The notes beneath the pieces are model-generated. The model was not told where the DNA came from. It saw only the letters and a program-made list of their open reading frames with translations, and did no database searches. Below, in pieces: positions 3,073-59,476 of a stretch of 64,000 nt of DNA. A program made the translations under genes and the position numbers. The stretch is taken from NCBI GenBank assembly GCA_016867035.1, contig VGKO01000001.1, positions 1,998-65,997 of the forward strand, written 5' to 3'. This DNA comes from Candidatus Pacearchaeota archaeon. Its GTDB lineage: Archaea > Nanobdellota > Nanobdellia > Pacearchaeales > GW2011-AR1. Every line of letters begins with the position of its first letter. Position 1 is the first letter of the stretch.

Positions 3073-3146
3073 GCCCTTATAGTTCAGCCCGGATAGAATA
3101 CGACCTTGCGGAGGTTGTGACCGAGGTTCAAATCCTCGTGGGGGCG
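3073..3146 (+). tRNA. tRNA-Arg (anticodon GCG)
   Basis: Cloverleaf read by eye: acceptor GCCCUUA/UGGGGGC (two G-U pairs), D arm GTTC..GAAT, anticodon stem CGACC/GGTTG with loop TTGCGGA, T arm CGAGG-TTCAAAT-CCTCG, discriminator G. CCA is not encoded. Confidence 0.7.
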
Positions 3147-3165: not shown

Positions 3166-6100
3166 TCAGGAAATCTTAGGTTTATCTAAATTTTGAAGGC
3201 CCTTGCTAAAATCGTCTAAATAGTTTTCTATACTACTTTTAAGAATAATAACATCTTTTATAGAATAAACTGCATCTTGCTTTATCAAGATAAGTTTCTT
3301 TCCTATCTTCTTGCTTATTCTTTTATCAACTCTAATAAGCCAACCATAAATTTTTGGAATCTTATCTTCCAAGTAAATTTCCTCGACTTTTCCAATAAAG
3401 TTGCCATCTTCAGAATAGACTTTTGTGCCAGTTAGACGACTTAATCTATTTTTAGAACCTTTATTGAAAATTCTTCTAACTTCAAAAATTATATTTTTAA
3501 TTAAAGAGTAAACTTTAATTCTCATCTTATAAATAAGAATAATTAATAATAAAATTAAAAGTATTGCTAAATTCTCTCCTTTAGAAGAGATTCCCTTAAC
3601 CCCCCTAAAAATATGGTTGAAAGTATTCCCAAAGATATCCTTTGTTTTGGTTATAACGCTAGAATTATCTTTTAATTCTACATTTTGATTTTTGCTTTCA
3701 TCTTTTATATTTGTGCTAATATCTTCATCACTATCGCATATGCTATTATTGTTCTTATCTAAACAGCATTCGGCCCCATATCTTATATAAGGGGGGTTGC
3801 AAACAATATTATCCTTAATAACATTTCCAAGAAGATTGCTTCCACCAGAACCTCCTGTAGAACCGCTTGATCCTCCCGTGTTATCTGTAACAGAAGAACT
3901 AACCACAAAACTATCATAAGCTGTAGCTGTACCTCCTGCCCAAGAGACTAATCCTCTAAATCTATAATTTCCAGAAGAACTTGGAGAAGTTAAAGTAGCC
4001 GTTAAATAAGAGTTCCCATTAGCAGATACATATATTGTTTGTTGCCCAGAAGTATAATTTGTATTCTCATTTTCATTAGTAATCCAATAATCAATGACAA
4101 AATCTTGCCCTACGTCTGAATTTTTATTCTCAATAGTAATTATTGTATTAAAACTTGTTGAGGCGGTTACAGATGCAGGCGCATTTACAATAGCATCGGC
4201 AGGCCCCCCATATCCGGGAATTCTTACATTGATTTGGTTTGAAGAATAAGTAATAGAATTAACTGTCGCTGTTGCCTTTACGAATAATTTATTTGCATTT
4301 GAAGCCGCTTTATCTATAATAATAGAACTTAAATAAGTATAATTTTGGGTTCTGTTTAGGTTAGTCGTTGTAGTTAATTCTAAATCAGAATCTATTAAAG
4401 TTATATTTGTTAAATCTTCTCCACCGGAATTTACAATTTCTAGAGATATTGTATAATTAACAGAAGTTGAATTTTCAGAATTATAATATGCATTTTTAGT
4501 TAAAGTCAACTGCTGTTCTGTTTCAGCAGCAGGAATAATTAAAATAATCTCAGAAGAATTTGCAGAAACTTGATTTCCAGAGTAAGAATTAGTTGCATTC
4601 ACTCTTGCAATCGCAATGCTAATATTATACGTAGATGAATTTCTCTCATACAACTTAATATAACTTCTAGTAGAGGAAGAATTTGCAGAAATATTTTCTA
4701 AATTGTAAGGAGAATCTGTTGAGTCTGAGTCAGTTAAAATTGTTGAAGTTGCATCACTTAAACCCTTATTTATTACTCTTAAAGTAAAATTATAAATTAT
4801 CGAGGTATTTGTCATATTATGGATACTCAATATTTTATCCAAAACAAAAGAAGCAGGCCCTCCTATGGAAAAAGTATCTTGGCAAGTCTCATTATATCCC
4901 TTATATGTTGAAGTTGCATTTAAAACATAACTTCCCACAGAAAGATTCGCAAAGCTTGTTTCAAATCCACCATCACTTGCAGTTGTTAAATTTTGATTAG
5001 CGTCTAAATTATTATTTGAATCATAGATGCTTAAATTAACAGCATAATTTGGAACAACAACACTTTCATTTAAAATTGTTCCTTGAACCAAGACAAGAGC
5101 CCCTTGTTGATACGAACCTCCGGCTTCACAAGAAATGGAAAAATTAGTCAAGTTAAAATAAAAGAAATAATTTGTAGAATTTGCTTTTCCATCGCTTGCA
5201 ATAACCGTCCAATTATATCTTCCAGAACTTCCTAAACTCCAGTTGTAAGTTACTTGAGTGCCATTTGTGATATTATAAGTTATATTAATCAAAGAATAAG
5301 TTCCATTTGGATATCCCCCATAAAACCAGACAGTGAAATTATCTAAATTGCCATTATTGTCTGAAGCAGTTGCATTAAGCAATATTGATATTCTATTGTT
5401 CAGATGAGAATTGTTTGTAGGATAATTTAAAGTTATGTTAGGGGCAATATTCGATTGTAATATTATTGTTCTATTTGTACTCCAATTTGAATTTCCTAGA
5501 CTATCAAAAGCAAGACAATTCCAAGTATAATTTCCAACCCCCAAGGCTAATGTCCAATTAGTTGAATTAAGTGTTCCAGTTATATTTGTTGTTTTATTAA
5601 GTATAAAATTGCCATTAGAGCTATTAGTTATATATAGGCTGATATTCTTTAAGGCAAAATTATCTGCAGAAGAGCAGTTAAAGGAAACATTAGTTGTCGA
5701 GCTTGTTATTGTAGCAGCATAATTTAAAGCCGGTGAGTTTAAAGTTAAATTTGGAGCAACGTTATCCATGTTAAAACTAATCAAGTTACTTCCTATATTA
5801 TTACTGGTGTCATTGCAATAAACTATCCAATTATTCCAGCCCGATATACTAGTTAATCCGGTAAAATTTTGTCCTGCCGATTGTATCGAATAATTATTTA
5901 TACCAGAATTATTTGAATACCAACAAGCACTCAAGGCAACATCGTCACTAACGCTATAATTAAGTGTAGTTATACTACCATAGCCCGTTCCATTAATAGG
6001 ATAAGTTATGTTTACTACAGGAAGAGTAGAATCTGAAAAGCCTATTGTTATTGTTCTGTTAATCGAAAAATTTGAATTTCCTAAGCTATCCGAGACAAAA

Positions 6101-9100
6101 CAATTCCAAGTATAAGTCCCTATTCCCAAAGTTAAAGTCCAGTTTGTTGTGTTTATTGTTCCATTTATGTTGGTAGTTCTATTAAAGGTAAAATTGCCAT
6201 TAGAATTATTAGTTAGGTATAAACTAATATTTTTCAAAGCCAAATTATCTGCAGAAGAGCAGTTAAAGGAAACATTAACCGAATTTGAAGTTCCCAAACT
6301 ATATGCATCGGACGGCGAATTCAAAGTTACATTTGGTGTAAAAGTATCTTTATAAAATGAAGAAACACCATTTCCAATATTATTAAGACTATCATTACAA
6401 TAAACTGTCCAATTATTCCAGCCCTCATTACTTGTTAATCCGGTCCAGTTTATTCCTGCAGAAAAAATAGATGAATTTGTTTCTGCATTATTAACTGAAT
6501 ACCAACAGGCACTAATATTCTCATTTGAAGAAACACTATAATTCAAAACAGAAATATTGGTTGCATAACTTGTGCCATTTAAAGGATAAACAATACTTAT
6601 AGCCGGATTGGCATTTCTTATAATAATTGTTCTTTGTTCTGTTGAATTTGAAAATCCAATTGAATCAGATGCAAAAAGCTGATAAGAATATGTCCCCAAA
6701 TCTAATCCAGCAGTTGAATTTTTGCTCTGATTTGCATAAAAATACCATTGAGTAGAATTAAATTTTTGCAAATTAGAAACATACTGCTCATAAATTTCTT
6801 CAGCGCTTAAACTTCTATTCCAAATTCTTACTTCATCAATTGAACCGTTAAAATAATAACCGTCGCTTCTCGCCCCAACCCTCAATAATTCGGTGTTGGC
6901 AACTGCATTCGTAGAATAGGCCGTGCTATTATCCAAAACACCATCAATATAAATCCTTAATTGGCTTCCATTATAAGTTACAGCCAAATGGCTCCAATTA
7001 CCTACGGAAAGGTTATTTTTTGATATTATGGTTTCTGCAAGGTCTGTTGACCATCTAAAAGTAATTCTTCCTGTTGTCGCATAATCCATTAATTGATAAC
7101 CTGTACTTGTCGAACCAGGAGTTGCCTTTGTAACATACATCTGATAACTCTTGAGTGAGTTTCTCTTTGCCCATAAAGAAATAGTGCCTCTTGTAGTTAA
7201 ATCTAGAGAATTTGAATCTGCAACACTAATGACGTCGTTGATTCCATCGAAAAAAGCACCCATTCCATATTTTCCAGAGGTGGAGTTTATTACTGCCCCA
7301 CTTAAAGTTCCATTATTTCCATTAATACTTGCATCCTTCACATGAGTTACATTCTCTCCAAGAGAGGAAATATTATCAAAATTATACATCAAAACCAGAG
7401 AGTTTTCATAGAAAGTATAATTTACCCCATTCCAATTATAAATTATATTTGTAAGCCCATGCGACCCTACAATTGAGGTATTTATTTGAATAGATGTATT
7501 TGTTGTACTTGTTCCGTCTATTGGTGTGGGGGATATAAAACTTAATTGAGGATAGTTTCTTGGAGTTGCATTAACAAAAATTGTTCTAGAGGCAAGATTA
7601 TTCAAGGTATCATTTACAGTTATATTTAAATTATATAAACCAACAGCTAAAAGCGTATTATTTTTTAAATATCCTGAACAATTTACATTGAAATTAGTTG
7701 TGTCATTAACCGTATAGCAAGATATTCCAGAAGCATCTGTAGCATTTATCTGATATGTAAATGCATTCCCATATAAAACTGTTTGATTTGTCAAATTGTT
7801 AAAAGTTGGGAAATTACTATCAGAAACATTTACAAAAATAATATTTGAAACTCTATTATTTAGTGTATCATTAATTGTAATATTGATCCAATAAGTCCTA
7901 CCTGCGAGAAGAGTATTATTTTTTAAATATCCTGAACAATTTACATTGAAATTAGTTGTGTCATTTACAGTAAAACAACTTATGTTATTAGAATCTGTAG
8001 CATTTATCTGATACCCCAACCCTAAAACTTCTGTTGTTGTTTGATTTGCGAGATTATTGAACACGGGTAAAATAGTATCCTTAAAGAATCTGTTTATTCT
8101 ACTTCCCAAATTATTATAACTATCATTGCAATAAACACTCCAATTATTCCAGCCTTCATTGCTTGTCAATCCTGTCCAGTTTATTCCTGCTGAAACAATT
8201 GAAGAATTCCAGATTCCTGAAGAATTACTCCACCAACATCCACTAATACTCGAGTTATCCGCAACAGTATAATTTAGAGTTGAAATATTAACAATATAAT
8301 TAGTGTTGTTTGCAGGATAGATTATGTTAATCGCCGGAGCAAGAGAATCTGAAACATTCACCCACATTAAACCAGAAGCAAGGTTATTAGAAGTATCATT
8401 AATTGTTATATTTAAGTTATGTAATCCTACATTAAGCAAAGTTTTATTCGTTAAAATACCAGCACAAGACATTGCAAAATTAGTTGTGTCATTAACCGTA
8501 TAGCAAGAAACCCCAAATGTATCTGATGCGCTTATTGTATGAGATAAAGCCGAGCCGTATTCTATAGACTTATTAGAGAGGTTTGTGAAAGTTGGGGAGA
8601 CTATATCTCTTATTGTAACATTCCATTTTGTAGTTATATTACTTATAGTCATATTAGAAGTCATATTAGCATATACAAAAAAAGTATTAGGAGATAAACT
8701 TGTTCCAGTTGCATTAACAATCCAAGTTATTGTTGAAGTCTGGGCATGGCTCAATGTAACATTATATGGATTTTGTGTTGTTGTATAAAATGGGGTTGCA
8801 CTTGTATTCATGGAAACTAGCCCAGATTTTACTCCCGTGCCGCCCGTATAAGTAAGCCATATTTTTGGAACAAGAGTATATGGAGTTGAAGCCATGCTAT
8901 CAAAAGGCCAAATATAACCAGAGTCACTTTGCCCACCAAGAGATCTCCCGTTAGCCAACCCTGTTACAACATACAAACCACCATTAGAAGTCCAGCCACT
9001 ATTATCCCTTGAGAAGTCTATAATAATATTACTTGTACCATCCCATGTGAAATTATTCGTAAAATTAAATTCGAACAAACGACTTACTGAAAATGAAGAG

Positions 9101-11709
9101 GTTGCTATACTTGTTGGGCCATATGCTGTAGTATTCCAAGAAGTAATTGCACTCGATGTAGTATTTAAGTTTGTATGATTCATTCTTATTCTAAAATTCC
9201 CTAATGCTTGTCCTGGAACTTGAGAAACATTAATATATAATTGTTTAATTACAGAACCCGTTGAAAGCCCTGCTGCCCTTAAATCAGAAGCAAGATAAAC
9301 AGACTGCATTCTTGCATCATGAAAATAAGTATTTAATGGATCTGGATTTGATGACGAGCCCCAACCCAAAGTTGAAGTAGCATTTCCTGCATGAATCTCC
9401 ACCATTGTTCCCCCAGATATAGGATCCAAACTTATATTTATCTCTCCGCAATAACCATCGAAACATGAAACATTAACAGAAATATTAAACAATTCGCTAT
9501 AGTTAGCTCCAATATTTTCAGTAGGATAAACCATCTCGAGTGTAATTCTTGGAATTGAGCTTCTTGTAAGAGATATAACCCGCGAGTTCAGATTATTATA
9601 GCTATCATTTACAGTTATATTAAACGTATAATAATAATCTTCCAAAGCAGTTTTATTTGTCAAGTAACCCGAACAATTAATATTAAAATTTGTTGTATCA
9701 TTAACAGTATAGCAAGATATTTCTGAAAGGTCTGTAGCATTTATCTGATAAGCTAATGAATCATACTGTCCGATTGTTTGGTTTGCTAAGTTATTGAATA
9801 AAGGAGGGGTTGTATCTGAAACATTGACAAATATTTCAGCCGATATAAGATGATTGACAGTGTCATTAACAGTTATGTTTACCCAATATAAACCAATTGC
9901 AAGATTTGTGTTGTTTGTCAAGTAACCTGAACAATTAATATTGTAATTAGTTGTGTCATTAACTGTAAAACAATTAATAGCCCCGTCGTCTGTAGCATTT
10001 ATTTGATAGTTAAATGAAGAACCATATTCCGATGTTTTGTTTTCAATTGCTGTGAAATTAGGATTTAGTACATCTTTATTAAATGTAGCAGACTTACTAC
10101 CTATTGCCCCGGTAGTATCATTGCAATAAACACTCCAATTATTCCAACCGTCATTACTTGTCAATCCTGTCCAGTTTGTTCCTGCTGAAACAATTGAAGA
10201 ATTCCAGATTCCTGAAGAATTACTCCACCAACAACTATCAATCGCATTTGTATCTGTAACAGTATAGTTTAATTCTGTGATATCTAAATAACTCGTCCAA
10301 TTAACAGGGTAAGTTATATTTATTGTAGGCGGAACCAAACCCATACCTATACCCATTCCAACCCCCACTAATGCAGGATAACCATCATTTACATTTGAAC
10401 TGATATCCCAATAATTATTGTTTAAAGTATCATTGTAAGGATTAAAAGCAAAATCCCATGAATTAGATATATTTGTATATGTTGAAACATTTTTCATTTG
10501 TGCGGTTGTTTTTCCTATTCCTCCAGAGGAAGTTGTTTTGCTTGTTGTTTGATTATCCCAGAAGCAATTTGCACAAGCATAATCTTGATAATCGCTAAAC
10601 CCTCCCCCGCCAGAGTCTCCAGAAACTCTTCCAGTGGCATAGCATGCAAAAAGATAAACGTCTTGCATCTCTCCTCCAAAAGCAGCTGTGTAGCCAGAGC
10701 TACCTCCACCAGTAACATTACCTCTTGCAAAGGAGTTATTAATAAAATTCGTTCCTAAATATGCTAAACCGACAAAACCCCCACAACCCCTGCTAACACA
10801 ATAAACATTACCTGTAGCATATGATTCCTTGATTTTTCCATCGTATTCTAAGTCTCCTACAAAACCACCAACACTTTCATATCCGGTAGCATTTCCCGTA
10901 GAATAACATCTAGTTATTGTTCCGGTATTATGAGAGCCTACAAAACCACCGACCGAATCTTGATAACTATAAGATGTTGAGGCCAAGGCAGAGGCAGTAG
11001 AATAAGAATCGAAAACAGAACCCCCGTTACCTCCAATAAAACCCCCGCAGTCATCGCTTGTACCGCAGTTAACACTTCCAGTAGAATAAGAATTATTTAT
11101 ATTACCGCCATGAGAACCGACAAAACCCCCTCCAGAATCCCATGAAGTTACATTTATAATTGAATAAGAATTTTTTATGTATCCCAAGCTTAATCCGGCA
11201 AATCCACCAGTATAACTCTGACCTGCGATTCTGCCACTAACAAAAGAATTTGAAATATTTCCCTTATTGTAACCTATTAACCCTCCAGTATAAGAAGCTC
11301 CACTTATATTTACATTTATCAATCCAAGATTAGAGATATTACTTGATAATTCTGAATACCCTATTAATCCAATATAACTTGTAGAAGTTCTTTTTATGTA
11401 TAAATCCGTAATGTTATAATATTGGCCATTCAAGCTTCCTCTAAAGCTACTTGAAGAAGTTCCAATCGGAGAAAATCCTAATGCAGAGTTCCAAGATGTC
11501 GTTTCAGAACAGTTTATATTATTTGCAAGGCCAAAATTTCCTAATAAGTCTAGGCTCAAGTTTTGAAGCTGAGTACAATTTGTTATTAAACAAGGATCTA
11601 ATGTTGTGTTACCACCCGACATTCCCGCGACGCAACCAGCACTTACAAAGTTTATTGCAAATATAAAAAACAAAATTACAATAGTAAAAACAAGTAGACT
11701 TTTTTTCAT
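3166..11709 (-). CDS. Giant (2847 aa) cell-surface protein: signal peptide, Gly-rich GGF(V/I)G repeats, many Ig-like repeats, LamG/ConA-like lectin domain, one C-terminal TM helix, cytoplasmic PRC-barrel-like tail
   Basis: There is an uninterrupted 8.5-kb ORF. The N-terminus 'MKKSLLVFTIVILFFIFAINFVSA' looks like a signal peptide. Repeated modules contain 'CYTVNDTTNFN(I/V)NCSGYL' and 'CWWSNSSGIWNSSIVSAG.NWTGLTSN.GWNNW'. 'SIDEVRIWNRSLSAEEI' is typical of LamG_3 domains. 'LAILLILLLIILIY' is a TM helix near the C-terminus. The tail 'GTKVYSEDGNFIGKVEEIYLED...WLIRVDKR' resembles PRC-barrel domains. N-x-S/T sequons are very dense throughout. Confidence 0.8.
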   Translation of the reverse strand: MKKSLLVFTIVILFFIFAINFVSAGCVAGMSGGNTTLDPCLITNCTQLQNLSLDLLGNFGLANNINCSETTSWNSALGFSPIGTSSSSFRGSLNGQYYNITDLYIKRTSTSYIGLIGYSELSSNISNLGLINVNISGASYTGGLIGYNKGNISNSFVSGRIAGQSYTGGFAGLSLGYIKNSYSIINVTSWDSGGGFVGSHGGNINNSYSTGSVNCGTSDDCGGFIGGNGGSVFDSYSTASALASTSYSYQDSVGGFVGSHNTGTITRCYSTGNATGYESVGGFVGDLEYDGKIKESYATGNVYCVSRGCGGFVGLAYLGTNFINNSFARGNVTGGGSSGYTAAFGGEMQDVYLFACYATGRVSGDSGGGGFSDYQDYACANCFWDNQTTSKTTSSGGIGKTTAQMKNVSTYTNISNSWDFAFNPYNDTLNNNYWDISSNVNDGYPALVGVGMGIGMGLVPPTINITYPVNWTSYLDITELNYTVTDTNAIDSCWWSNSSGIWNSSIVSAGTNWTGLTSNDGWNNWSVYCNDTTGAIGSKSATFNKDVLNPNFTAIENKTSEYGSSFNYQINATDDGAINCFTVNDTTNYNINCSGYLTNNTNLAIGLYWVNITVNDTVNHLISAEIFVNVSDTTPPLFNNLANQTIGQYDSLAYQINATDLSEISCYTVNDTTNFNINCSGYLTNKTALEDYYYTFNITVNDSYNNLNSRVISLTRSSIPRITLEMVYPTENIGANYSELFNISVNVSCFDGYCGEINISLDPISGGTMVEIHAGNATSTLGWGSSSNPDPLNTYFHDARMQSVYLASDLRAAGLSTGSVIKQLYINVSQVPGQALGNFRIRMNHTNLNTTSSAITSWNTTAYGPTSIATSSFSVSRLFEFNFTNNFTWDGTSNIIIDFSRDNSGWTSNGGLYVVTGLANGRSLGGQSDSGYIWPFDSMASTPYTLVPKIWLTYTGGTGVKSGLVSMNTSATPFYTTTQNPYNVTLSHAQTSTITWIVNATGTSLSPNTFFVYANMTSNMTISNITTKWNVTIRDIVSPTFTNLSNKSIEYGSALSHTISASDTFGVSCYTVNDTTNFAMSCAGILTNKTLLNVGLHNLNITINDTSNNLASGLMWVNVSDSLAPAINIIYPANNTNYIVNISTLNYTVADNSSISGCWWSNSSGIWNSSIVSAGINWTGLTSNEGWNNWSVYCNDSYNNLGSRINRFFKDTILPVFNNLANQTTTEVLGLGYQINATDSNNISCFTVNDTTNFNVNCSGYLKNNTLLAGRTYWINITINDTLNNRVSNIIFVNVSDSNFPTFNNLTNQTVLYGNAFTYQINATDASGISCYTVNDTTNFNVNCSGYLKNNTLLAVGLYNLNITVNDTLNNLASRTIFVNATPRNYPQLSFISPTPIDGTSTTNTSIQINTSIVGSHGLTNIIYNWNGVNYTFYENSLVLMYNFDNISSLGENVTHVKDASINGNNGTLSGAVINSTSGKYGMGAFFDGINDVISVADSNSLDLTTRGTISLWAKRNSLKSYQMYVTKATPGSTSTGYQLMDYATTGRITFRWSTDLAETIISKNNLSVGNWSHLAVTYNGSQLRIYIDGVLDNSTAYSTNAVANTELLRVGARSDGYYFNGSIDEVRIWNRSLSAEEIYEQYVSNLQKFNSTQWYFYANQSKNSTAGLDLGTYSYQLFASDSIGFSNSTEQRTIIIRNANPAISIVYPLNGTSYATNISVLNYSVSSNENISACWYSVNNAETNSSIFSAGINWTGLTSNEGWNNWTVYCNDSLNNIGNGVSSFYKDTFTPNVTLNSPSDAYSLGTSNSVNVSFNCSSADNLALKNISLYLTNNSNGNFTFNRTTNINGTINTTNWTLTLGIGTYTWNCFVSDSLGNSNFSINRTITIGFSDSTLPVVNITYPINGTGYGSITTLNYSVSDDVALSACWYSNNSGINNYSIQSAGQNFTGLTSISGWNNWIVYCNDTSNNIGSNLISFNMDNVAPNLTLNSPALNYAATITSSTTNVSFNCSSADNFALKNISLYITNSSNGNFILNKTTNITGTLNSTNWTLALGVGNYTWNCLAFDSLGNSNWSTNRTIILQSNIAPNITLNYPTNNSHLNNRISILLNATASDNNGNLDNFTVWFYGGYPNGTYSLINITYNITNGTQVTYNWSLGSSGRYNWTVIASDGKANSTNYFFYFNLTNFSISCEAGGSYQQGALVLVQGTILNESVVVPNYAVNLSIYDSNNNLDANQNLTTASDGGFETSFANLSVGSYVLNATSTYKGYNETCQDTFSIGGPASFVLDKILSIHNMTNTSIIYNFTLRVINKGLSDATSTILTDSDSTDSPYNLENISANSSSTRSYIKLYERNSSTYNISIAIARVNATNSYSGNQVSANSSEIILIIPAAETEQQLTLTKNAYYNSENSTSVNYTISLEIVNSGGEDLTNITLIDSDLELTTTTNLNRTQNYTYLSSIIIDKAASNANKLFVKATATVNSITYSSNQINVRIPGYGGPADAIVNAPASVTASTSFNTIITIENKNSDVGQDFVIDYWITNENENTNYTSGQQTIYVSANGNSYLTATLTSPSSSGNYRFRGLVSWAGGTATAYDSFVVSSSVTDNTGGSSGSTGGSGGSNLLGNVIKDNIVCNPPYIRYGAECCLDKNNNSICDSDEDISTNIKDESKNQNVELKDNSSVITKTKDIFGNTFNHIFRGVKGISSKGENLAILLILLLIILIYKMRIKVYSLIKNIIFEVRRIFNKGSKNRLSRLTGTKVYSEDGNFIGKVEEIYLEDKIPKIYGWLIRVDKRISKKIGKKLILIKQDAVYSIKDVIILKSSIENYLDDFSKGLQNLDKPKIS

Positions 11710-11888
11710 TTTATCTTCATCTCCCTCTTAAATTTAATTATCTCTTCTGCATCTTTTATCTTCCAGAGAGCATTATTATAAAAATTAGAAACAGCAGGCT
11801 GCGAGATATTAAGTTTTTTAGCTATTTCTAGCTGAGTAAGCCCTTGTTTTTTCAACTTAAGAACCTCTTTTTCCCTGTCGCTAAGCAT
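11706..11888 (-). CDS. Small HTH DNA-binding protein (LuxR/sigma-70 region-4-like), putative regulator
   Basis: 'LTQLEIAKKLNISQPAVSNFYNNALWKI' is a classic HTH with a recognition helix. Its stop overlaps the start of the giant gene by 4 bp (11706-11709), suggesting co-transcription or translational coupling. Confidence 0.55.
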   Translation of the reverse strand: MLSDREKEVLKLKKQGLTQLEIAKKLNISQPAVSNFYNNALWKIKDAEEIIKFKREMKIK

Positions 11889-11999
11889 AACTATTATAAC
11901 TTATTTAGGTTATATAAAGCTATCTAAATACAACAATATTAAAAAATTAAAGGATAAAAATTATCCCAAAATTTAAAATAAGATTACATATCAGGGGCG

Positions 12000-13046
12000 T
12001 TAATCTTCTCCACTTTCTTCATCAGTAACGCCCTTGCTAGCTACAAAGAAAATAGTTTCATTATCAGGCAAGTTTGGGGAATCAATTAACTTAGCTACTC
12101 TTGAACCTTTCTTGCCTTTTCTAAGATAAATTCTATAAGTTGAAGCATGTCCAACTATATTCCCGCCAATAGCAGTTGTAGGATCTCCAAACAACATTCC
12201 GGGATTACTCATAACCTGATTAGTAACATAAATCGCAAGATTATTTTGCTCTGCAATTTTCATTAAATTATGTAAATACTTATTCAATTTTTGTTGTCTA
12301 TCTGCTAATTGTCCTCTTCCTGAGAATTCAGCTCTAAAATGAGCAGTAAGCGAATCGACTACAATTAACTTGATAGGCTCATTATTTTTAATCATCTCTT
12401 GAACCTTATCCAATAATAATATTTGATGGTCTGAATTAAAAGCTCTTGCAACAAATATATTTTTTAAAACATTTTCCGGATTTAGCCCAAGCCCTGTTGC
12501 AATTTGTCTTATTCTTTCAGGTCTGAAGGTTCCTTCAGTGTCAATAAATACTGCTTTTCCATTAGCTCCACCCATTTCCACAGGTAATTGAGTTCTGATG
12601 GCTAAAGTAAATCCAAGCTGAGATTTTCCACTTCCAAAAGCACCATAAGCCTCTGTAATTGATTTAGTTTCAACACCCTTGCCCCCTAGAAGATTATCTA
12701 AATTTTTGCTTCCTGTACCAATAAAAAATATTTCTTTTCTCTTTTCTGAAAACTCTGAACCTGTTTGAAAACCCAAGTCCATCATTTTTCTTGCTGCTTG
12801 GATTGCTTTTCTAGCAACCGCTTCTCCAAGCCCAGCCATTTCTCCAAGTTCGGCAGGCGATAATACTGCAACACCCATTAAATCATAAATACCCGCATCC
12901 TCAAGCTTTTGGACAGTTCCCGGCCCAATTCCAGGCAAATCTGAGATTTTGTTTTCTTTTTTTTCTTCTTTTTCTTTTTTGGATTTTTTCTTAGATTCTT
13001 CTTTTTCCTCTATAACCTCTTCTTTTATCTCTTTTAAAGTTACCAT
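12000..13046 (-). CDS. radA: DNA repair and recombination protein RadA (Rad51/RecA family)
   Basis: An N-terminal HhH ('LPGIGPGTVQKLEDAGIYDLMGVA') is followed by Walker A 'GAFGSGKSQL' and Walker B '...LIVVDSL'. It carries a Lys/Glu-rich N-terminal extension. Confidence 0.9.
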   Translation of the reverse strand: MVTLKEIKEEVIEEKEESKKKSKKEKEEKKENKISDLPGIGPGTVQKLEDAGIYDLMGVAVLSPAELGEMAGLGEAVARKAIQAARKMMDLGFQTGSEFSEKRKEIFFIGTGSKNLDNLLGGKGVETKSITEAYGAFGSGKSQLGFTLAIRTQLPVEMGGANGKAVFIDTEGTFRPERIRQIATGLGLNPENVLKNIFVARAFNSDHQILLLDKVQEMIKNNEPIKLIVVDSLTAHFRAEFSGRGQLADRQQKLNKYLHNLMKIAEQNNLAIYVTNQVMSNPGMLFGDPTTAIGGNIVGHASTYRIYLRKGKKGSRVAKLIDSPNLPDNETIFFVASKGVTDEESGED

Positions 13047-16794: not shown

Positions 16795-17418
16795 TTATAT
16801 TATATCTATAATTCCATTTTTTACACTTCCGGTATCTGAACAATGATAAACTTTATGGAAAAAATTGAAAGAGTGATGATTAATACTCATATTTAAAGAC
16901 CCCAATCTAACTTCATTATCCTTGCTTAAAGCAAGTTGTGGAGCCTCAAACAAAGTAGGATAAAAACCAAAGCATTTCTTGAACTCCCGCATACCATTTT
17001 TAATATAATTTTCGTCACGAATCTCTAAAAATTCTTGGAAAGTATGATAAAAACCAAAGCATTTCTTGAACTCCCGCATACCATTTTTAATATAATCTTC
17101 GTCACGAATCTCTAAAAATTCTTGGAAAGTATGATAAACCCCATGCATCCCAAGAGTTTTATTCAAAGCTAATATTTCCTGACACCAAGTTTTATTTTCG
17201 GCAATTGAAATATTATTATAAAGTGGAATTACCATTAGAATCTCGCTCTTTTCTATTATCTCTTTCTCGCAATATATTTGTGGAGAGAAGTCATCTACCT
17301 GTCTAGCCCAAAGGGCTCTTGCAAGAATAAAGTCAGCTATTAAAAAAACGATGGCAATTCCCAGAATTATAAGTATTATTCGCCATTTACTAATCCCTTT
17401 TTTATTTTTGTTTATCAT
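16795..17418 (-). CDS. N-terminally membrane-anchored protein containing a perfect-looking 29-aa tandem duplication
   Basis: An N-terminal TM helix ('WRIILIILGIAIVFLIADFIL') is present. 'YHTFQEFLEIRDE(D/N)YIKNGMREFKKCFGF' occurs twice in tandem. Confidence 0.5.
   Translation of the reverse strand: MINKNKKGISKWRIILIILGIAIVFLIADFILARALWARQVDDFSPQIYCEKEIIEKSEILMVIPLYNNISIAENKTWCQEILALNKTLGMHGVYHTFQEFLEIRDEDYIKNGMREFKKCFGFYHTFQEFLEIRDENYIKNGMREFKKCFGFYPTLFEAPQLALSKDNEVRLGSLNMSINHHSFNFFHKVYHCSDTGSVKNGIIDII
16960..17133. repeat. 87-bp tandem direct duplication (2 copies, about 2 mismatches) inside CDS 16795..17418
   Basis: The string 'ataaaaaccaaagcatttcttgaactcccgcataccatttttaatataat(t/c)ttcgtcacgaatctctaaaaattcttggaaagtatg' is seen twice back to back. 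Confidence 0.8.
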
Positions 17419-17431
17419 ATTATTTTATTAA

Positions 17432-18316
17432 TTATAACATCGCAAGCAAGATTAAGAGAAGAATAGCAAATAGAAAAGCCGGAGTAAAAGGAATACCATA
17501 TTTTATTTCAACCTTCTTGTTTTTTCCAAATCTTTTAGTAATTATTTTAAGTTCTTCTTCACTTAAACCTTCCCAATTAGGCTTTATTATTTTTTTTCCA
17601 ATCTTTACTTTAGTAGTTAACCAGTCTCCAATAGTTAAGTTAGAAACCGGGGGAAATTTAGTTAAGCAAGATTCCTCTATAGCCTTAGCAGCCAATAATA
17701 AAATAGGCAAAATAATCATCACCCCTGCTAAAATCATACCAATTGCTAGATTAAATAAAAAGAATACTCCAAAAACAATTGCAAAGAACAAGATAGAAGA
17801 TAGTGTCTGAATCTTATACTTAGAGAAAGAAATTATAAAACTTTTCTTAAACTTCCCCAGATGTAAAAACATTAAAGTTAAACTATAAATCAAGCCATAA
17901 ATACTTCCGGCCAGTATAAAGAAAAAAATAAACAAGCAAAATATCCAAATATTTTGATTAAAATTATTTGTTAAAGGTAAAAAAGCGCCAAGGGCTATTA
18001 AGAGTTTAGCATCCCCGCCGGCGAAAACCCTAGCATAATAAAAAATATTAGCCAATATAAAACCAACAACCACTCCAATCAAACCCCAAACAAAAAAACC
18101 CCAGTTAGCTAGTTCAATAGATAAAAAGAACCTATAAGCCAAAATAAAGACAATTAGACTAAAGTTCCACCAATTAGCAACCTCTCTCTTCCTAAAATCC
18201 TGGATAACAGCAATTAAAACCCAAAACAAAACCCCTATGATTAAAAACCAATTATAACTTGTTAATATCTCTTTAAGGTTGAGATTGAATAAGAATTGCA
18301 TAAAAAATAAGTCCAT
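17432..18316 (-). CDS. Type IV prepilin/preflagellin peptidase (A24 family; PibD/FlaK-like)
   Basis: It is a polytopic membrane protein. 'IQDFRKREVANWW' matches the first catalytic-Asp motif and 'FAGGDAKLLIALGAF' matches the GGD(V/A)KL second-Asp motif. It sits at the end of the pilin gene array. Confidence 0.7.
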   Translation of the reverse strand: MDLFFMQFLFNLNLKEILTSYNWFLIIGVLFWVLIAVIQDFRKREVANWWNFSLIVFILAYRFFLSIELANWGFFVWGLIGVVVGFILANIFYYARVFAGGDAKLLIALGAFLPLTNNFNQNIWIFCLFIFFFILAGSIYGLIYSLTLMFLHLGKFKKSFIISFSKYKIQTLSSILFFAIVFGVFFLFNLAIGMILAGVMIILPILLLAAKAIEESCLTKFPPVSNLTIGDWLTTKVKIGKKIIKPNWEGLSEEELKIITKRFGKNKKVEIKYGIPFTPAFLFAILLLILLAML

Positions 18317-18522
18317 TAGATATAAATTATTAATTATTATTTCCAGAGTTTATTTGATTAACCTCAGATGTTCTAAACTTACCGCCATGCTTATAAGGAA
18401 AAAGTTTACGTCTTTTTTTCTTGTCCTTACCTTTATTTCTTCTTTCACTACCTGAAGAATAAAAATCATCACCCATTATAAGAATAGGAAAAAAGGGTTT
18501 AAAAGTTTAATTAAAATTGAAT

Positions 18523-19041
18523 TTATTCTGTTCCTGTTTCTTCAATATTAGCAACTGTCTTTTCACAGCAAACCTCAGTCTTTACATCATGCATTTCTGA
18601 ATTTTGTATTTGAGAAGTAAAATCTTTTGCGGTTCCGCATCCAGGGTTCTTTGACTTCCAGTCACAGTTAAGGACACCATCATCTTTTAATGAAGTTTCA
18701 GCACAATCCACATTTGGACAACTTTCAAGTCCTGCCTCGCCCACATTAGTTCTCAGAGTAGAACAACTTCCTCTAAAAGAACGCTTATCGTCTAAATTAA
18801 TTGTTCTTGATTTTCCACAGAACTCATAAACCTGACTAGTAGAACATGCCGCAGTACAAGCATTTTTAATAGTATCTACATTTGTACCTGAACCAAAGAA
18901 ATTTTTAATATTATCCATCAAACTTCCGCCGCTTCTAGTAAAACTAAATATTAAGAAAACCAATACAACAATAGCAATAATAATTACAATTATTGTACCA
19001 ACACTCATTTCCTGAGCTTTTTTATTCAATAAGTTTCTCAT
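18523..19041 (-). CDS. Pilin-like protein with class III (type IV pilin) signal peptide; Cys-rich C-terminal domain
   Basis: '...NKKAQEMSVGTIIVIIIAIVVLVFLIF' is a KKA|Q processing-site-like motif followed by a hydrophobic stretch. There are 12 or more Cys C-terminally. Confidence 0.6.
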   Translation of the reverse strand: MRNLLNKKAQEMSVGTIIVIIIAIVVLVFLIFSFTRSGGSLMDNIKNFFGSGTNVDTIKNACTAACSTSQVYEFCGKSRTINLDDKRSFRGSCSTLRTNVGEAGLESCPNVDCAETSLKDDGVLNCDWKSKNPGCGTAKDFTSQIQNSEMHDVKTEVCCEKTVANIEETGTE

Positions 19042-19078
19042 GTTCCTCTTTGTATCTAACCATATATGTTTCTGGGGT

Positions 19079-20157: not shown

Positions 20158-20159
20158 TT

Positions 20160-20642: not shown

Positions 20643-20643
20643 T

Positions 20644-21054: not shown

Positions 21055-21060
21055 CTTAAA

Positions 21061-22149: not shown

Positions 22150-22344
22150 TTTAAATAATCAAAAGATTTCAACATTAAAAATCTATGCAGTGAGATTATC
22201 AACTAGTAATTTAACCCCAAAAGCAAGTATGGCAAAAAGAGCAATTCTTAATAGCCATAAAAAAAAGTGGCTTCCTGGATTTTCCTCGCCTTTTTTATTT
22301 TTAAAAAGATTTACCATTGTATTAAGAGTTGTATTAGGATTTAT

Positions 22345-23223: not shown

Positions 23224-23224
23224 T

Positions 23225-33562: not shown

Positions 33563-33874
33563 TTAATTTAAACCAGAGTTTCCTTGGCTTAAATCCATTG
33601 TTTCAGATTCAGAGAAGCCCTCTTCTACATCAGCTATTGGAAGACTTGCTTTGTTAACAACAAAAACATCTCCAATTGCCTTTACGAATTGGTGAGGCAC
33701 TATTACTCCTCTTGCACCATTCAAATTTCGAATCATCTCTCGAGATACTCGAATTCTCCAGCTGTCTATCTTGTTTTCAGCAAGAACAGCTTCTTCGATT
33801 TCTCCGAAAAAATCACCGCTATCAGTAAATACTCTTTTTCCAAGCATTGAACTGATCTTTTTTATTTTTAGCAT
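33563..33874 (-). CDS. PRC-barrel domain protein (stand-alone)
   Basis: 'MLGKRVFTDSGDFFGEIEEAVLAENKIDSWRIRVSRE' matches the G(K)xV.D.dGe.iG.ve.....v..l.v PRC-barrel pattern. Confidence 0.55.
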   Translation of the reverse strand: MLKIKKISSMLGKRVFTDSGDFFGEIEEAVLAENKIDSWRIRVSREMIRNLNGARGVIVPHQFVKAIGDVFVVNKASLPIADVEEGFSESETMDLSQGNSGLN

Positions 33875-59215: not shown

Positions 59216-59476
59216 ATGGCTATAGAAAAAAAGACATTAAAAGAGTTAATGGGTAAACTAATTGTTACAAAAGAAGGTAAGAGATTAGGTATTGTTCAAG
59301 ATGTTACTTTCGAAACTCGAACAGGCGAGCTTATTCATGTAGTAGTTAAAGATCCTACTCCTTACACAAGAAGCGTTAATTTAGAAAAGACAGCTGAAGG
59401 CGAGACACTTATACCTTACAATTCAATTATAGCAGTAGGGGATTTCTTAGTTATATCAGAAGAAGATTTAGTTTAA
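59216..59476 (+). CDS. PRC-barrel domain protein (stand-alone, 86 aa)
   Basis: 'LMGKLIVTKEGKRLGIVQDVTFETRTGELIHVVVKD' plus 'IPYNSIIAVGDFLVIS' give a PRC-barrel pattern. Confidence 0.55.
   Translation: MAIEKKTLKELMGKLIVTKEGKRLGIVQDVTFETRTGELIHVVVKDPTPYTRSVNLEKTAEGETLIPYNSIIAVGDFLVISEEDLV

What the first reader, a model, noticed from the sequence alone, without database searches (positions are those of the whole stretch)
3166..11709. 2847-aa giant surface protein with extreme N-glycosylation sequon density and lectin-like domain
A single uninterrupted 8.5-kb gene encodes one protein with the following parts in order: signal peptide, Gly-rich GGF(V/I)G repeats (GLUG-like), many roughly 90-100-aa Ig-like modules, a LamG/ConA-like lectin domain (SIDEVRIWNRSLSAEEI), a Gly/Ser linker, one TM helix and a short cytoplasmic tail. 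N-x-S/T sequons occur every few residues along most of the ectodomain, implying a very heavily N-glycosylated adhesin or S-layer-like protein. Giant surface proteins of this type are candidate host-attachment factors in episymbiotic archaea.
Basis: partly seen in the sequence, partly recalled or inferred. Interest (0 to 1): 0.7.

Follow-up and report, generated by a model that had tools for sequence, protein, structure and literature searches.

The report
Giant glycosylated archaeal adhesin, PRC-barrel anchor
This is an intact gene for a 2847-residue, sugar-coated cell-surface protein of a tiny symbiotic-type (Pacearchaeota) archaeon; proteins of this kind are already known, but this one is held in the membrane by a previously undescribed anchor whose inner end resembles archaeal cell-division scaffold proteins.

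Summary
Window 3166-11709 (minus strand) is one uninterrupted 2847-codon ORF, identical to a 'hypothetical protein' of a Candidatus Pacearchaeota MAG. Signal peptide, GLUG repeats, LamG domain, Gly/Ser linker and a single TM helix are all present. It carries 185 N-x-S/T sequons: 2.1 times the composition-shuffled expectation (z 12.7) and 15 times the density of the other 55 window ORFs. Sequon positions are conserved between repeat copies.

One correction matters. The cytoplasmic tail is not short. It is about 115 residues and folds as a PRC barrel whose closest solved structure is the Archaeoglobus CdpB1/CdpB2 division scaffold.

This module (Cys/EF-hand-like motif, TM helix, PRC barrel) ends 121 protein clusters, named so far only from Pacearchaeota, Woesearchaeota and Nanoarchaeota records. 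Their heads vary: LamG, beta-helix, MAM, Gly-rich.

The gene is translationally coupled to a 60-aa GerE-type HTH gene, an arrangement conserved in relatives. Two free-standing CdpB-like genes lie in the same window.

Best reading: a glycan-shielded adhesin fibre, clustered or tethered from inside through its PRC tail. The adhesin class is known in DPANN; the anchor and operon are a new variant. Binding, glycosylation and tail partners are inferred, not shown.

The parts
11911..11918 (-). TATA-box-like TTTATATA, 30 nt upstream of the HTH start codon; likely promoter of the two-gene cassette
   Evidence: Read directly from the sequence. Inference only; not tested.
11706..11888 (-). 60-aa GerE/LuxR-type (sigma-70 region-4-like) helix-turn-helix protein. 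Its TGA stop overlaps the ATG of the giant gene (ATGA).
   Evidence: ORF. Pfam GerE E 4e-10 and Sigma70_r4 E 8e-8. It is 68-75% identical and in the same overlapping position upstream of relatives P0002, P0003 and P0004, whose flanking genes otherwise differ.
3166..11709 (-). Giant surface-protein gene, 2847 codons plus stop
   Evidence: Identical to P0001.
11638..11709 (-). Sec-type signal peptide, residues 1-24 (MKK, hydrophobic core, VSA|G)
   Evidence: Hydropathy peak at residues 1-31 and sequence reading. No dedicated predictor was available.
10336..11637 (-). N-terminal head with GLUG repeats, residues 25-458; lower sequon density (3.9 per 100 aa)
   Evidence: Pfam Glug, 6 stretches, E 9.7e-18 on the segment. 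This region matches 110 of the 120 best database relatives, many of them bacterial GLUG proteins. Sequon count.
9577..10335 (-). Repeat modules A1-B1-B2, residues 459-711 (about 85-95 aa each, beta-sandwich-like, paired Cys)
   Evidence: Internal repeats at 44-72% identity. Recurrent weak Big_7, Big_13 and He_PIG hits. Conserved sequon columns.
9409..9576 (-). N-terminal half of a split beta-sandwich 'display' domain, residues 712-767
   Evidence: Found together with its C-terminal half in 33 further instances in relatives, always separated by an insert of 149-364 aa.
8785..9408 (-). 208-aa inserted domain of unknown fold, residues 768-975; unique to this protein
   Evidence: No Pfam hit at E<=5. 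No relative among 120 homologues or in JGI metagenomes. The single-sequence AlphaFold model is all-beta but unreliable (pLDDT 36). At the same site relatives carry ALK-like Gly-rich, MAM, fibrinogen-C, LamG or Cys-rich domains.
8614..8784 (-). C-terminal half of the split beta-sandwich, residues 976-1032
   Evidence: invariant N-P, N-x-T-G and F columns.
7558..8613 (-). Repeat modules B3-A2-B4-B5, residues 1033-1384
7246..7557 (-). Residues 1385-1488: domain preceding LamG. It co-occurs with LamG in relatives and is read as the first half of a beta-sandwich that hosts LamG.
   Evidence: Matches 30 sites in 12 relatives, each next to a LamG domain. The nesting is an inference.
6793..7245 (-). 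LamG / concanavalin-A-like lectin domain, residues 1489-1639
   Evidence: PF13385, E 5.1e-30, 105 bits against a cut-off of 27.6. The only PDB sequence match is the pappalysin-2 LamG region.
6607..6774 (-). Residues 1646-1701: segment after LamG that resembles the C-terminal part of type C modules
   Evidence: Matches residues 1854-1889 and 2048-2085 of the same protein.
5185..6606 (-). Repeat modules A3-C1-A4-C2 plus a Big_7-like module, residues 1702-2175; densest sequon region (up to 13 per 100 aa)
   Evidence: Big_7 best stretch at residues 2090-2169. Weak Big_13 and Cadherin_5 hits for type C.
3892..5184 (-). Conserved stalk, residues 2176-2606: a prealbumin/SpaA-like module plus three modules of about 110 aa
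   Evidence: SpaA E 1.5e-4 on the segment. E 1e-27 to 1e-63 against P0002-P0004. Visible in the majority consensus of 34 family members.
3838..3888 (-). Gly/Ser-rich linker, residues 2608-2624
   Evidence: Sequence reading.
3721..3801 (-). Four-Cys motif C-N-P-P-Y-x3-G-x2-C-C-L-D-x-N-x-N-x2-C-D-x-D-E, residues 2637-2663. The D-x-N-x-N-x3-D-x2-E part has EF-hand-like Ca-loop spacing.
   Evidence: Conserved in the family consensus. A regex match was found in about a third of members. Ca binding and disulfides are inferred from the pattern only.
3517..3576 (-). Transmembrane helix, about residues 2712-2731, followed by a basic juxtamembrane helix (to about residue 2750)
   Evidence: Only internal hydropathy peak. 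AlphaFold gives a continuous helix over residues 2709-2751. The tail is 22% K+R with no Cys and no sequon, against 3.8% K+R in the ectodomain.
3187..3447 (-). Cytoplasmic PRC barrel (residues 2755-2824) and C-terminal helix (residues 2825-2841)
   Evidence: PF05239, 25.0 bits against a cut-off of 21.2. phmmer against PDB: 8QZO E 5e-6. AlphaFold pLDDT 93-97. Foldseek top hits are A. fulgidus CdpB1/CdpB2 8ONW and 8QZO, E 1e-6, TM 0.79, rmsd 2.1 A.
33563..33874 (-). Free-standing 103-aa CdpB-like PRC-barrel protein; candidate cytoplasmic partner of the tail
   Evidence: PF05239 E 5e-5. 8ONW E 9e-10. 29% identity to the tail, E 8e-11. 58 bits against the tail-family HMM. The partnership is inferred.
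59216..59476 (+). Second free-standing 86-aa PRC-barrel protein
   Evidence: PF05239 E 4e-9. 8QZO E 1.4e-9.

Best explanation
The gene encodes a roughly 305-kDa, acidic, Sec-exported type-I membrane protein of a Pacearchaeota (DPANN) archaeon. It most likely forms a long, glycan-coated adhesin fibre.

**Reading the protein from outside to inside**
- A GLUG-repeat head.
- About 19 beta-sandwich-like modules of 85-115 aa. If extended, they would span several tens of nanometres (inference).
- Two of these modules are split and display nested binding-type domains: a LamG lectin-like domain and a unique 208-aa domain.
- A stalk conserved across the family.
- A Gly/Ser hinge and a disulfide/Ca-loop-like motif.
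- One TM helix.
- A cytoplasmic PRC barrel of the CdpB type.

**Shown here**
- The intact gene and its domain order.
- The topology signals.
- Selection for N-x-S/T at fixed positions.
- The PRC fold.
- The recurrence of the anchor module on many different heads.
- The overlap with an upstream HTH gene.

**Inferred**
1. AglB glycosylates most of the 183 ectodomain sequons. This would shield and stiffen the fibre.
2. The variable heads and inserts bind ligands (glycans or proteins) on a host or partner cell or on a substrate.
3. The PRC tail self-associates, or co-assembles with the free-standing CdpB-like proteins encoded in the same genome. Solved PRC barrels of this type form homo- and heterodimers that chain into membrane-proximal filaments. 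Such assembly would cluster, position and mechanically hold the fibres from the cytoplasmic side.
4. The tiny HTH protein regulates the cassette.
For: **Intact gene, known organism**
- Intact ORF, identical to a deposited MAG protein.

**Domains and topology**
- Glug, Laminin_G_3 and PRC are all above Pfam cut-offs.
- Repeats.
- Signal peptide, single TM helix, positive-inside tail, and Cys and sequons confined to the ectodomain.

**Sequon selection**
- 2.1 times the shuffled expectation and 15 times the window background.
- Type A repeats have 4 sequon columns conserved in at least 70% of 19 copies; type B repeats have 6.
- Family ectodomains carry 4-7.8 sequons per 100 aa.

**The tail is CdpB-like**
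- Sequence match.
- AlphaFold pLDDT 93-97.
- Foldseek top hits 8ONW and 8QZO.
- CdpB1:CdpB2 dimers chain into filaments and bind SepF (bioRxiv 10.1101/2023.03.28.534543 and 10.1101/2023.03.28.534520).

**Candidate partners are present**
- Two free-standing PRC genes lie in the window.

**The anchor is modular**
- 121 cluster representatives match at their extreme C-terminus. About 100 of them have a TM helix followed by an 85-125-aa tail.
- Heads include LamG, beta-helix/NosD, MAM, FG-GAP and ALK-type Gly-rich domains.
- Head swapping occurs among close relatives that share the stalk.

**Taxonomy**
- Pacearchaeota, Woesearchaeota and Nanoarchaeota.

**Operon**
-.

**Class precedent**
- DPANN surface proteins with many N-glycosylation sites, Ig-like folds, beta-helix or lectin heads and a C-terminal TM helix have been described. 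aglB is present in a cultivated relative (10.1101/2023.10.27.564410; PMC10266531).
Against: - No experimental data exist on expression, glycosylation, localisation or binding.
- No AglB, SepF or FtsZ gene lies in the 64-kb window, and the rest of the MAG could not be inspected.
- The Ig-like fold of repeat types A and B rests on sub-threshold hits.
- The unique insert could not be modelled.
- No host or partner organism is known, so 'adhesin' is an argument from architecture.
- PRC-PRC interaction of the tail was not modelled; no multimer prediction was available.
- The hydrophobic core of the TM segment is short (14 residues).
- The small upstream regulators belong to different folds in different loci (GerE, wHTH, RHH). 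This argues against a specific physical partnership with the tail.
Confidence: 0.55

Rival explanations
1. It is the S-layer, or an S-layer-anchoring, protein of the cell rather than an adhesin. The conserved stalk, TM helix and PRC tail would form the lattice anchor, and the glycosylated Ig-like modules would form the canopy.
For: - Archaeal S-layer proteins are rich in Ig-like folds and N-glycans.
- In the cultivated DPANN Nanobdella, candidates with a C-terminal TM helix are proposed as SlaB-like anchors (10.1101/2023.10.27.564410).
- The stalk and anchor are conserved.
- A self-associating PRC tail could support a lattice.
Against: - Heads differ radically between close relatives that share the same stalk: GLUG here, a PQQ-type propeller in P0004, Gly-rich domains in P0002 and P0003.
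- The family carries many lectin and adhesin-type heads.
- At 2847 aa it is far larger than the S-layer candidates discussed for DPANN (about 1000 aa in the cited preprint).
- Genomic context varies between relatives.
- No expression data are available.
Confidence: 0.17
2. The PRC tail has no cytoplasmic partner. It is a passive folded 'stopper' or a topogenic and quality-control domain. It would keep a very long ectodomain from being pulled out of the membrane, or help membrane insertion.
For: - The module is always terminal and directly follows the TM helix with a fixed 85-125-aa length.
- It also ends some multi-pass membrane proteins with no adhesin features.
- The short TM core might need extra anchoring.
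Against: - The domain is specifically of the CdpB type, whose solved members oligomerise (10.1101/2023.03.28.534543).
- It is well conserved: invariant G, V and Y positions, and a KIYGWLIK motif.
- It is closer to a free-standing paralogue in the same genome (58 bits) than a mere plug would need to be.
Confidence: 0.15
3. The cassette is a contact-sensing device. The membrane-bound PRC tail would sequester the co-translated small DNA-binding protein and release it when the ectodomain engages a target or is cleaved. This would be functionally analogous to sigma/anti-sigma pairs.
For: - A 4-nt start/stop overlap with a tiny DNA-binding protein occurs in 7 of 9 loci examined.
- The regulator here is sigma-70 region-4-like.
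- The cytoplasmic domain is a known protein-protein interaction fold.
Against: - The upstream proteins are of unrelated folds (GerE HTH, winged HTH, ribbon-helix-helix). A conserved PRC tail is unlikely to bind all of them.
- Plain autoregulation explains the coupling.
- No interaction evidence exists.
- The orientation is opposite to classical anti-sigma factors.
Confidence: 0.08
4. It is mainly an extracellular enzyme (protease, or polysaccharide lyase or hydrolase) presented on a stalk, not an adhesin.
For: - Most bacterial GLUG relatives carry the M26 IgA1-protease N-terminal region (PF05342).
- Beta-helix/NosD heads in the family resemble pectin-lyase folds.
- The unique insert is unassigned.
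Against: - No catalytic family was detected in this protein at E<=1 in Pfam or NCBIfam.
- PF05342 is absent here.
- The only PDB sequence match is a LamG region.
Confidence: 0.05

Closest known systems
DPANN surface proteins with LamG, Ig-like and beta-helix domains and a C-terminal TM helix (Nanobdella aerobiophila MJ1 proteins; nanohaloarchaeal LamG proteins)
   Same: - Signal peptide and many N-glycosylation sequons.
- Tandem Ig-like folds.
- Lectin-like or beta-helix heads.
- Single C-terminal TM anchor.
- Proposed role in attachment to a host (10.1101/2023.10.27.564410; PMC10266531).
   Different: - Those descriptions report 13-52 sites in proteins of about 900-1300 aa, with no cytoplasmic domain mentioned in the passages read. 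Here there are 185 sequons in 2847 aa.
- Here there is a CdpB-like PRC barrel behind the TM helix, a conserved stalk and Cys motif, nested display domains, and a coupled HTH gene.
Nanohaloarchaeal giant 'SPEARE'-type proteins (SVXNc_0300, BNXNv_0298)
   Same: Giant Ig-like ectodomain, membrane anchoring, and a functional domain on the cytoplasmic side. They lie in variable genomic regions of DPANN genomes (PMC10266531).
   Different: - They are 8880-9409 aa, and their cytoplasmic part is a VirB4/TraG-like ATPase.
- No ATPase is detected here; the cytoplasmic part is a 70-aa PRC barrel.
- No sequence relationship was found.
CdpB1/CdpB2/CdpB3 PRC-barrel cell-division proteins of Euryarchaeota (PDB 8ONW, 8QZO)
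   Same: - Best sequence and structure match of the tail: E 5e-6; Foldseek E 1e-6, TM 0.79, rmsd 2.1 A over 71 residues.
- The segment preceding the barrel also aligns.
   Different: - CdpB proteins are small, soluble and free-standing. They localise to midcell, and CdpB1 binds SepF.
- Here the barrel is the C-terminal end of a 2847-aa type-I membrane protein.
- Identity is only about 25%. SepF binding and localisation are unknown.
H subunit of the photosynthetic reaction centre
   Same: Same topology: one TM helix followed by a cytoplasmic PRC barrel. Foldseek E 1e-4 to 1e-3.
   Different: - The H subunit has almost no extracytoplasmic part and caps the L/M subunits.
- No photosynthesis genes are seen here.
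- Similarity is weaker than to CdpB.
Bacterial GLUG-motif surface proteins (M26 IgA1-protease-like proteins, filamentous-haemagglutinin-like proteins)
   Same: The N-terminal head (residues 25-458) matches 110 of the 120 best relatives, at about 30-45% identity over the GLUG region.
   Different: - Those proteins carry Peptidase_M26_N, T9SS, TPS or other bacterial sorting domains.
- They lack the archaeal stalk, the PRC anchor and the extreme sequon load.
PGF-CTERM / archaeosortase-type C-terminal anchors of archaeal surface glycoproteins
   Same: A conserved C-terminal sorting or anchoring module attached to diverse glycosylated surface proteins.
   Different: - No PGF motif.
- The TM helix is followed by a folded 115-aa domain instead of a few basic residues, so cleavage and lipid attachment at the C-terminus are unlikely.

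Membership tests
Laminin_G_3 / ConA-like lectin superfamily (PF13385) | Profile match above the curated gathering score over the full domain | tested here: met
   105 bits against 27.6; profile positions 2-150 of 151; residues 1489-1639.
Laminin_G_3 / ConA-like lectin superfamily (PF13385) | Carbohydrate or protein ligand binding | not testable with these tools
   No binding-site analysis or experiment was possible.
GLUG motif proteins (PF07581) | Several tandem GLUG repeats above the gathering score | tested here: met
   4 stretches (36.1 bits) in the whole protein and 6 stretches (63.7 bits) in residues 130-460, against a cut-off of 20.5.
M26 IgA1-protease-type GLUG proteins | Peptidase_M26_N (PF05342) and/or an M26 catalytic domain | tested here: not met
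   No such family at E<=1, although most bacterial relatives have PF05342.
PRC-barrel domain (PF05239) | Profile match above the gathering score | tested here: met
   25.0 bits against 21.2; residues 2755-2825.
PRC-barrel domain (PF05239) | PRC-barrel fold | tested here: met
   AlphaFold pLDDT 93-97 for the barrel. 40 PDB matches at E<=1e-3, including CdpB, MTH1859, RC-H, CdvA and RimM.
CdpB cell-division PRC proteins | Small free-standing soluble protein | tested here: not met
   The barrel is the C-terminus of a 2847-aa membrane protein. Free-standing versions exist separately at 33563-33874 and 59216-59476.
CdpB cell-division PRC proteins | Binding to SepF, hetero-oligomerisation into filaments, midcell localisation | not testable with these tools
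   No multimer prediction was available, and no sepF or ftsZ lies in the window.
Archaeal N-glycoprotein | N-x-S/T sequons enriched beyond composition and confined to the exported part | tested here: met
   185 against 86 +/- 7.8 by shuffling. 15 times the window background. None in the cytoplasmic tail. Sequon columns are conserved.
Archaeal N-glycoprotein | AglB oligosaccharyltransferase in the genome; glycans actually attached | not testable with these tools
   No STT3/AglB-like ORF was recognised: the first-half window ORFs were scanned, ten second-half ORFs were scanned, and the remaining second-half ORFs were assigned by eye only. aglB is reported in a cultivated DPANN relative (10.1101/2023.10.27.564410).
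Bacterial-type Ig-like domains (Big_7 PF17957, Big_13 PF19077, He_PIG) | Profile match above the gathering score | tested here: inconclusive
   - Big_7: 19.3 bits against 24.1 in the whole protein.
- Copies of type A hit Big_7 (7 of 19, best E 1e-3) and Big_13 (4 of 19).
- Copies of type B hit Big_13 (5 of 19, best E 1.6e-4) and He_PIG (3 of 19).
- No structure model was obtained.
PGF-CTERM / archaeosortase substrates | PGF motif, TM helix and a short basic tail at the extreme C-terminus | tested here: not met
   There is no PGF motif, and the TM helix is followed by 115 residues.
Nanohaloarchaeal SPEARE-type giant proteins | More than 5000 aa with a cytoplasmic VirB4/TraG-like ATPase domain | tested here: not met
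   2847 aa; no ATPase family in Pfam or NCBIfam.
S-layer protein | Forms the regular surface lattice; among the most highly expressed genes | not testable with these tools
   No expression or imaging data. Variable heads among relatives argue against it.

The most novel reading that the evidence does not exclude
In Pacearchaeota/Woesearchaeota-type DPANN archaea, surface adhesins may be physically wired to the CdpB/SepF-type PRC-barrel scaffold under the membrane. The PRC tails would co-polymerise with free CdpB-like proteins. Attachment fibres would then be organised into rows or patches, and their placement would be coupled to the division apparatus. This would be a trans-envelope link between host contact and the archaeal cytoskeleton. 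Its expression, and possibly its signalling, would be governed by the translationally coupled mini-regulator.
Probability: 0.2. Interest if true: 0.8.

Novelty: new variant of a known kind. Interest (0 to 1): 0.58.

Why it matters
How DPANN archaea hold on to other cells is an open question, and giant glycosylated surface proteins are the main suspects.

This locus adds a concrete, testable handle. A conserved anchor module joins very different adhesin-like heads to a cytoplasmic domain of the same type as the recently discovered archaeal division scaffold proteins. It is found on at least 121 protein clusters in Pacearchaeota, Woesearchaeota and Nanoarchaeota.

**If the tail does dock onto that scaffold**
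- It would be the first link between surface adhesion and the cytoplasmic organising machinery in archaea.
- It would give PRC barrels a role beyond cell division.

**What the other features offer**
- The split beta-sandwich that displays interchangeable binding domains, together with the HTH/RHH-coupled cassette, provides markers for finding and classifying such adhesins in metagenomes.
- The conserved sequon positions are useful for studying glycan shielding.

**If the tail is only a plug,** the finding is an ordinary, if extreme, member of a known class.

Tried and rejected
**Searches and models that led nowhere**
- Word-indexed homologue searches with fragments returned nothing, not even the parent protein (C-terminal 207 aa; the insert). 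These negatives are uninformative.
- Exact-sequence contig look-up of the giant protein failed twice, although the protein is in the collection.
- A JGI metagenome scan for relatives of the 208-aa insert found none.
- Single-sequence AlphaFold of the insert gave pLDDT 36, which is unusable. No fold search was run on it.
- Fragment-based alignments misaligned, both locally and in the tool (A5), and were not used.
- Foldseek against afdb50 was unavailable.
- Profile searches of repeat types A and B against PDB sequences gave only E 0.017-0.035 (shark VNAR, cadherin-related), which is not significant.
- A literature search for the PDB codes was unhelpful. The identity of 8ONW and 8QZO came from the Foldseek descriptions.
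A narrower alignment worked but is a low-sensitivity pattern scan.

**Ideas rejected**
- Pseudogene or assembly artefact: the ORF is intact, repeats are diverged, and the architecture is conserved.
- Sequon richness as a by-product of an Asn-rich proteome.
- Recent horizontal acquisition: the GC content of the gene equals that of the window.
- PGF-CTERM anchoring.

Full report
**1. The observation**

The window holds a single ORF at 3166..11709 on the minus strand. It has an ATG start, 2847 codons and no internal stop. The in-frame open stretch starts only six codons upstream of that ATG.

The protein is 100% identical to NCBI 'hypothetical protein FJZ17_00045 [Candidatus Pacearchaeota archaeon]'. 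The window's other genes are archaeal: RadA, PolD small and large subunits (recognised from their sequences), Orc1/Cdc6, a prepilin peptidase and a type-IV-pilus-like ATPase.

The GC content of the gene (0.31-0.35) matches that of the window. Repeats inside the gene are only 67-94% identical at the DNA level. Nothing therefore suggests a pseudogene, a recent transfer or an assembly collapse.

**2.

| Part | Result |
|---|---|
| Signal peptide | MKK, hydrophobic core, VSA\|G |
| GLUG repeats | PF07581, 4-6 copies, above the gathering score |
| LamG domain | PF13385, residues 1489-1639, E 5e-30 |
| Gly/Ser linker | residues 2608-2624 |
| Internal hydrophobic helix | one, about residues 2712-2731 |

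The 85-100-aa modules are true repeats:
- Type A: four copies.
- Type B: five copies.
- Type C: two, plus a Big_7-like copy.

Their Ig-like nature is plausible but not proven here. The only support is recurrent sub-threshold hits of individual copies to Big_7, Big_13 and He_PIG and weak profile matches to PDB sequences.

**3. Sequons**

- There are 185 N-x(not P)-S/T sequons, or 6.5 per 100 aa.
- Shuffling the protein's own residues gives 86 +/- 7.8 (z 12.7). The reversed motif occurs 112 times.
- After Asn-x, Thr is 2.7-fold and Ser 1.6-fold over-represented, while every other residue is under-represented.
- The other 55 ORFs of the window carry 0.43 sequons per 100 aa and 5.3% Asn, against 13.3% here. 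The exported pilin-like ORFs next door are also sequon-poor.
- Density is 7.6 per 100 aa in residues 459-2640 and 3.9 per 100 aa in the GLUG head. It is zero in the cytoplasmic tail.
- In alignments of 19 repeat copies, type A has four sequon columns kept in at least 70% of copies and type B has six. Three of the type B columns are kept in all 19 copies.

The enrichment is therefore specific, position-conserved and confined to the exported part. Actual glycosylation is still an inference. No AglB gene was recognised in the window: only part of its ORFs were scanned against Pfam, and the rest were assigned by eye. The remainder of the genome could not be read.

**4.

Behind the TM helix lie about 115 residues. 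They are 22% Lys+Arg and contain no Cys. They hold a PRC barrel: PF05239, 25.0 bits against a cut-off of 21.2.

- Against PDB sequences the best matches are 8QZO and 8ONW, at E 5e-6.
- An AlphaFold model of residues 2637-2847, built with a 30-sequence alignment, gives pLDDT 93-97 for the barrel. It also shows a continuous TM-plus-juxtamembrane helix and a C-terminal helix.
- Foldseek ranks the Archaeoglobus fulgidus CdpB1/CdpB2 complex first, at E 1e-6, TM 0.79 and rmsd 2.1 A. Next come MTH1859, then the reaction-centre H subunits, and then CdvA. The H subunits share the 'TM helix then cytoplasmic PRC barrel' topology.

CdpB1 and CdpB2 are archaeal division proteins. Their dimers chain into membrane-proximal filaments, and CdpB1 binds SepF (bioRxiv 10.1101/2023.03.28.534543 and 10.1101/2023.03.28.534520).

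The window itself encodes two free-standing CdpB-like proteins:
- 33563-33874, 103 aa. 8ONW E 9e-10; 29% identical to the tail; 58 bits against a tail-family HMM.
- 59216-59476, 86 aa.

**5. The tail belongs to a conserved anchor module**

An exhaustive HMMER search of 1.84 billion cluster representatives with residues 2650-2847 found 121 proteins at E<=1e-3, and 54 at E<=1e-10. Almost all match at their extreme C-terminus.

- About 100 of them have a hydrophobic helix followed by an 85-125-aa tail.
- The long ones (1000-2642 aa) have a signal peptide and ectodomains with 4-7.8 sequons per 100 aa.
- Many also share two further elements. One is the stalk of residues 2176-2606. The other is a four-Cys motif, C-x-x-P-Y-x3-G-x2-C-C-L-D-x-N-x-N-x2-C-D-x-D-E, whose acidic part has EF-hand-like spacing. 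The EF-hand reading is pattern-based only.

The heads differ:
- In 34 long members: LamG in 7, beta-helix/NosD in 7, and Big_13, DUF2341, MAM, FG-GAP or ALK-type Gly-rich domains in others.
- Among the closest relatives, which are about 61-63% identical in the shared part, P0004 has a PQQ-type propeller and P0002 and P0003 have Gly-rich domains.
- A few PRC tails end multi-pass membrane proteins.

Database names are only automatic ones, such as 'sporulation protein YlmC with PRC-barrel domain' and 'PRC-barrel domain-containing protein'. Named sources are Pacearchaeota, Woesearchaeota, Nanoarchaeota or 'archaeon'.

The full-text searches I ran found no description of a PRC barrel fused to a surface protein. 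This is absence from a partial library, not proof of novelty.

**6. Nested display domains**

Residues 712-767 and 976-1032 are the two halves of one conserved beta-sandwich-like domain. The same split domain occurs 33 more times in relatives, always interrupted by 149-364 residues.

The inserts are unrelated to each other apart from the shared flank. They include Gly-rich ALK-like, MAM-like, fibrinogen-C-like, LamG/DUF2341 and Cys-rich domains.

The insert here (residues 768-975) has no detectable relative anywhere I could search. It could not be modelled.

The LamG domain appears to be nested in the same way. It lies between residues 1385-1488 and 1646-1701, and the latter segment resembles the C-terminal part of type C modules. 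I read these as display sites for interchangeable binding domains. This is an inference.

**7. Operon**

A 60-aa GerE/LuxR-type HTH ORF (11706-11888) ends in a TGA that overlaps the giant gene's ATG. A TATA-like TTTATATA lies 30 nt upstream of its start codon.

| Loci | Upstream small ORF | Junction with the surface-protein gene |
|---|---|---|
| P0002, P0003, P0004 | Same HTH, 68-75% identical; flanking genes differ | Same overlapping position |
| Three more distant family members | Winged HTH, or one of two ribbon-helix-helix-like ORFs | 4-nt overlap |
| Two further loci | No such overlapping ORF | - |

Because the regulators are of different folds, autoregulation of the cassette is the simplest reading. 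A physical regulator-tail partnership is possible but less likely.

The database gene call for P0002 is truncated. Its open frame starts at the HTH stop and includes a signal peptide, giving about 4016 aa.

**8. Mechanism**

Shown:
- A type-I membrane protein with an exported, sequon-selected, modular ectodomain.
- A cytoplasmic CdpB-type PRC barrel.
- A family-wide anchor with swappable heads.
- Coupling to a small regulator.

Inferred:
- The protein is a long glycan-shielded fibre. It has about 19 beta-sandwich-like modules plus head, insert and LamG domains. The mature polypeptide is 305.5 kDa with pI 4.7.
- Its heads bind ligands on another cell or surface.
- The PRC tails self-associate, or join the free CdpB-like proteins under the membrane. 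This would cluster, position and hold the fibres.

Rivals:
- An S-layer or S-layer-anchor role.
- A passive plug function of the tail.
- A contact-sensing cassette.
- An enzyme on a stalk.

**9. Comparison with what is known**

The general class is already described: DPANN surface proteins with many N-glycosylation sites, Ig-like folds, lectin or beta-helix heads and a C-terminal TM helix, proposed for host attachment (10.1101/2023.10.27.564410; PMC10266531).

Nanohaloarchaeal giants also pair an ectodomain with a cytoplasmic domain, but theirs is a VirB4-like ATPase. The protein here fails the defining features of those giants, of M26 GLUG proteases, of PGF-CTERM substrates and of free-standing CdpB proteins. 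It is a clear member of the LamG_3, GLUG and PRC domain families.

**10. Verdict**

The finding is real, and its main interpretation is reasonable but not new as a class. The added value lies in four features:
- The CdpB-like PRC anchor module.
- Its wide use on variable heads.
- The nested display domains.
- The regulator-coupled cassette.

Together these make it a new variant of a known kind. It is of moderate to good interest, and there are clear computational and experimental tests.

Noticed in passing
window 11706-11888 (-); L001 8164-8352; L002 9820-10008; L003 305-487; L006 2295-2504; L008 1873-2004; L009 1858-2004: A tiny DNA-binding protein gene (GerE-type HTH, winged HTH or ribbon-helix-helix) overlaps by 4 nt the start of PRC-tailed surface-protein genes. 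This holds in 7 of 9 loci examined, across otherwise non-syntenic contexts.
   Followed up: yes
window 33563-33874 (-) and 59216-59476 (+): Two free-standing CdpB-like PRC-barrel genes. The first lies next to two small multi-pass membrane ORFs (32494-33549). The second lies in the AT-rich region beside orc1/cdc6. Which is the CdpB1 or CdpB2 equivalent was not resolved.
   Followed up: partly
window 17432-29868 (-): Type-IV-pilus-like locus:
- Prepilin peptidase (PF01478, 17432-18316).
- Nine small ORFs with a basic N-terminus followed by a hydrophobic stretch, read as pilin-like (18523-24623). They have no Pfam hits and are notably poor in sequons.
- A 720-aa polytopic membrane protein.
- A T2SSE-family ATPase (27583-29868).
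   Followed up: partly
window 57222-59216: orc1/cdc6 (57222-58460) is followed by the most AT-rich stretch of the window (GC 0.26 at 58-60 kb), with the PolD subunits just upstream (52014-57096). This is a probable replication origin. No origin repeats were searched for.
   Followed up: no
L001 8345-20395: The database gene call for relative P0002 (3464 aa) is truncated. The open frame begins at the stop of the upstream HTH gene and encodes a signal peptide, giving about 4016 aa.
   Followed up: yes
window 40149-43181 (-): A 1010-aa ORF with a GTG start whose only Pfam hit is a LexA-like winged-helix DNA-binding domain at the N-terminus. It lies in a slightly GC-richer stretch (0.37). Its function is unknown.
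   Followed up: no
window 16795-17418 (-): A 207-aa membrane-anchored ORF contains an almost perfect tandem duplication of about 33 aa (YHTFQEFLEIRDE[D/N]YIKNGMREFKKCFGF twice).
   Followed up: no
window 3073-3146 (+), 12000-13046 (-); L005 13840-14793: The cassette lies between a convergent tRNA-Arg(GCG) gene, 20 nt past its stop, and radA. A radA gene also abuts the PRC-tailed giant gene of the distant relative P0008, whereas other relatives sit in unrelated contexts.
   Followed up: partly
tool behaviour: Fragment queries to the word-indexed protein search did not recover even the parent protein. The exact-sequence contig look-up did not find P0001, although it is in the collection. 'No hit' from these tools is therefore not evidence of absence for pieces of giant proteins.
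   Followed up: partly
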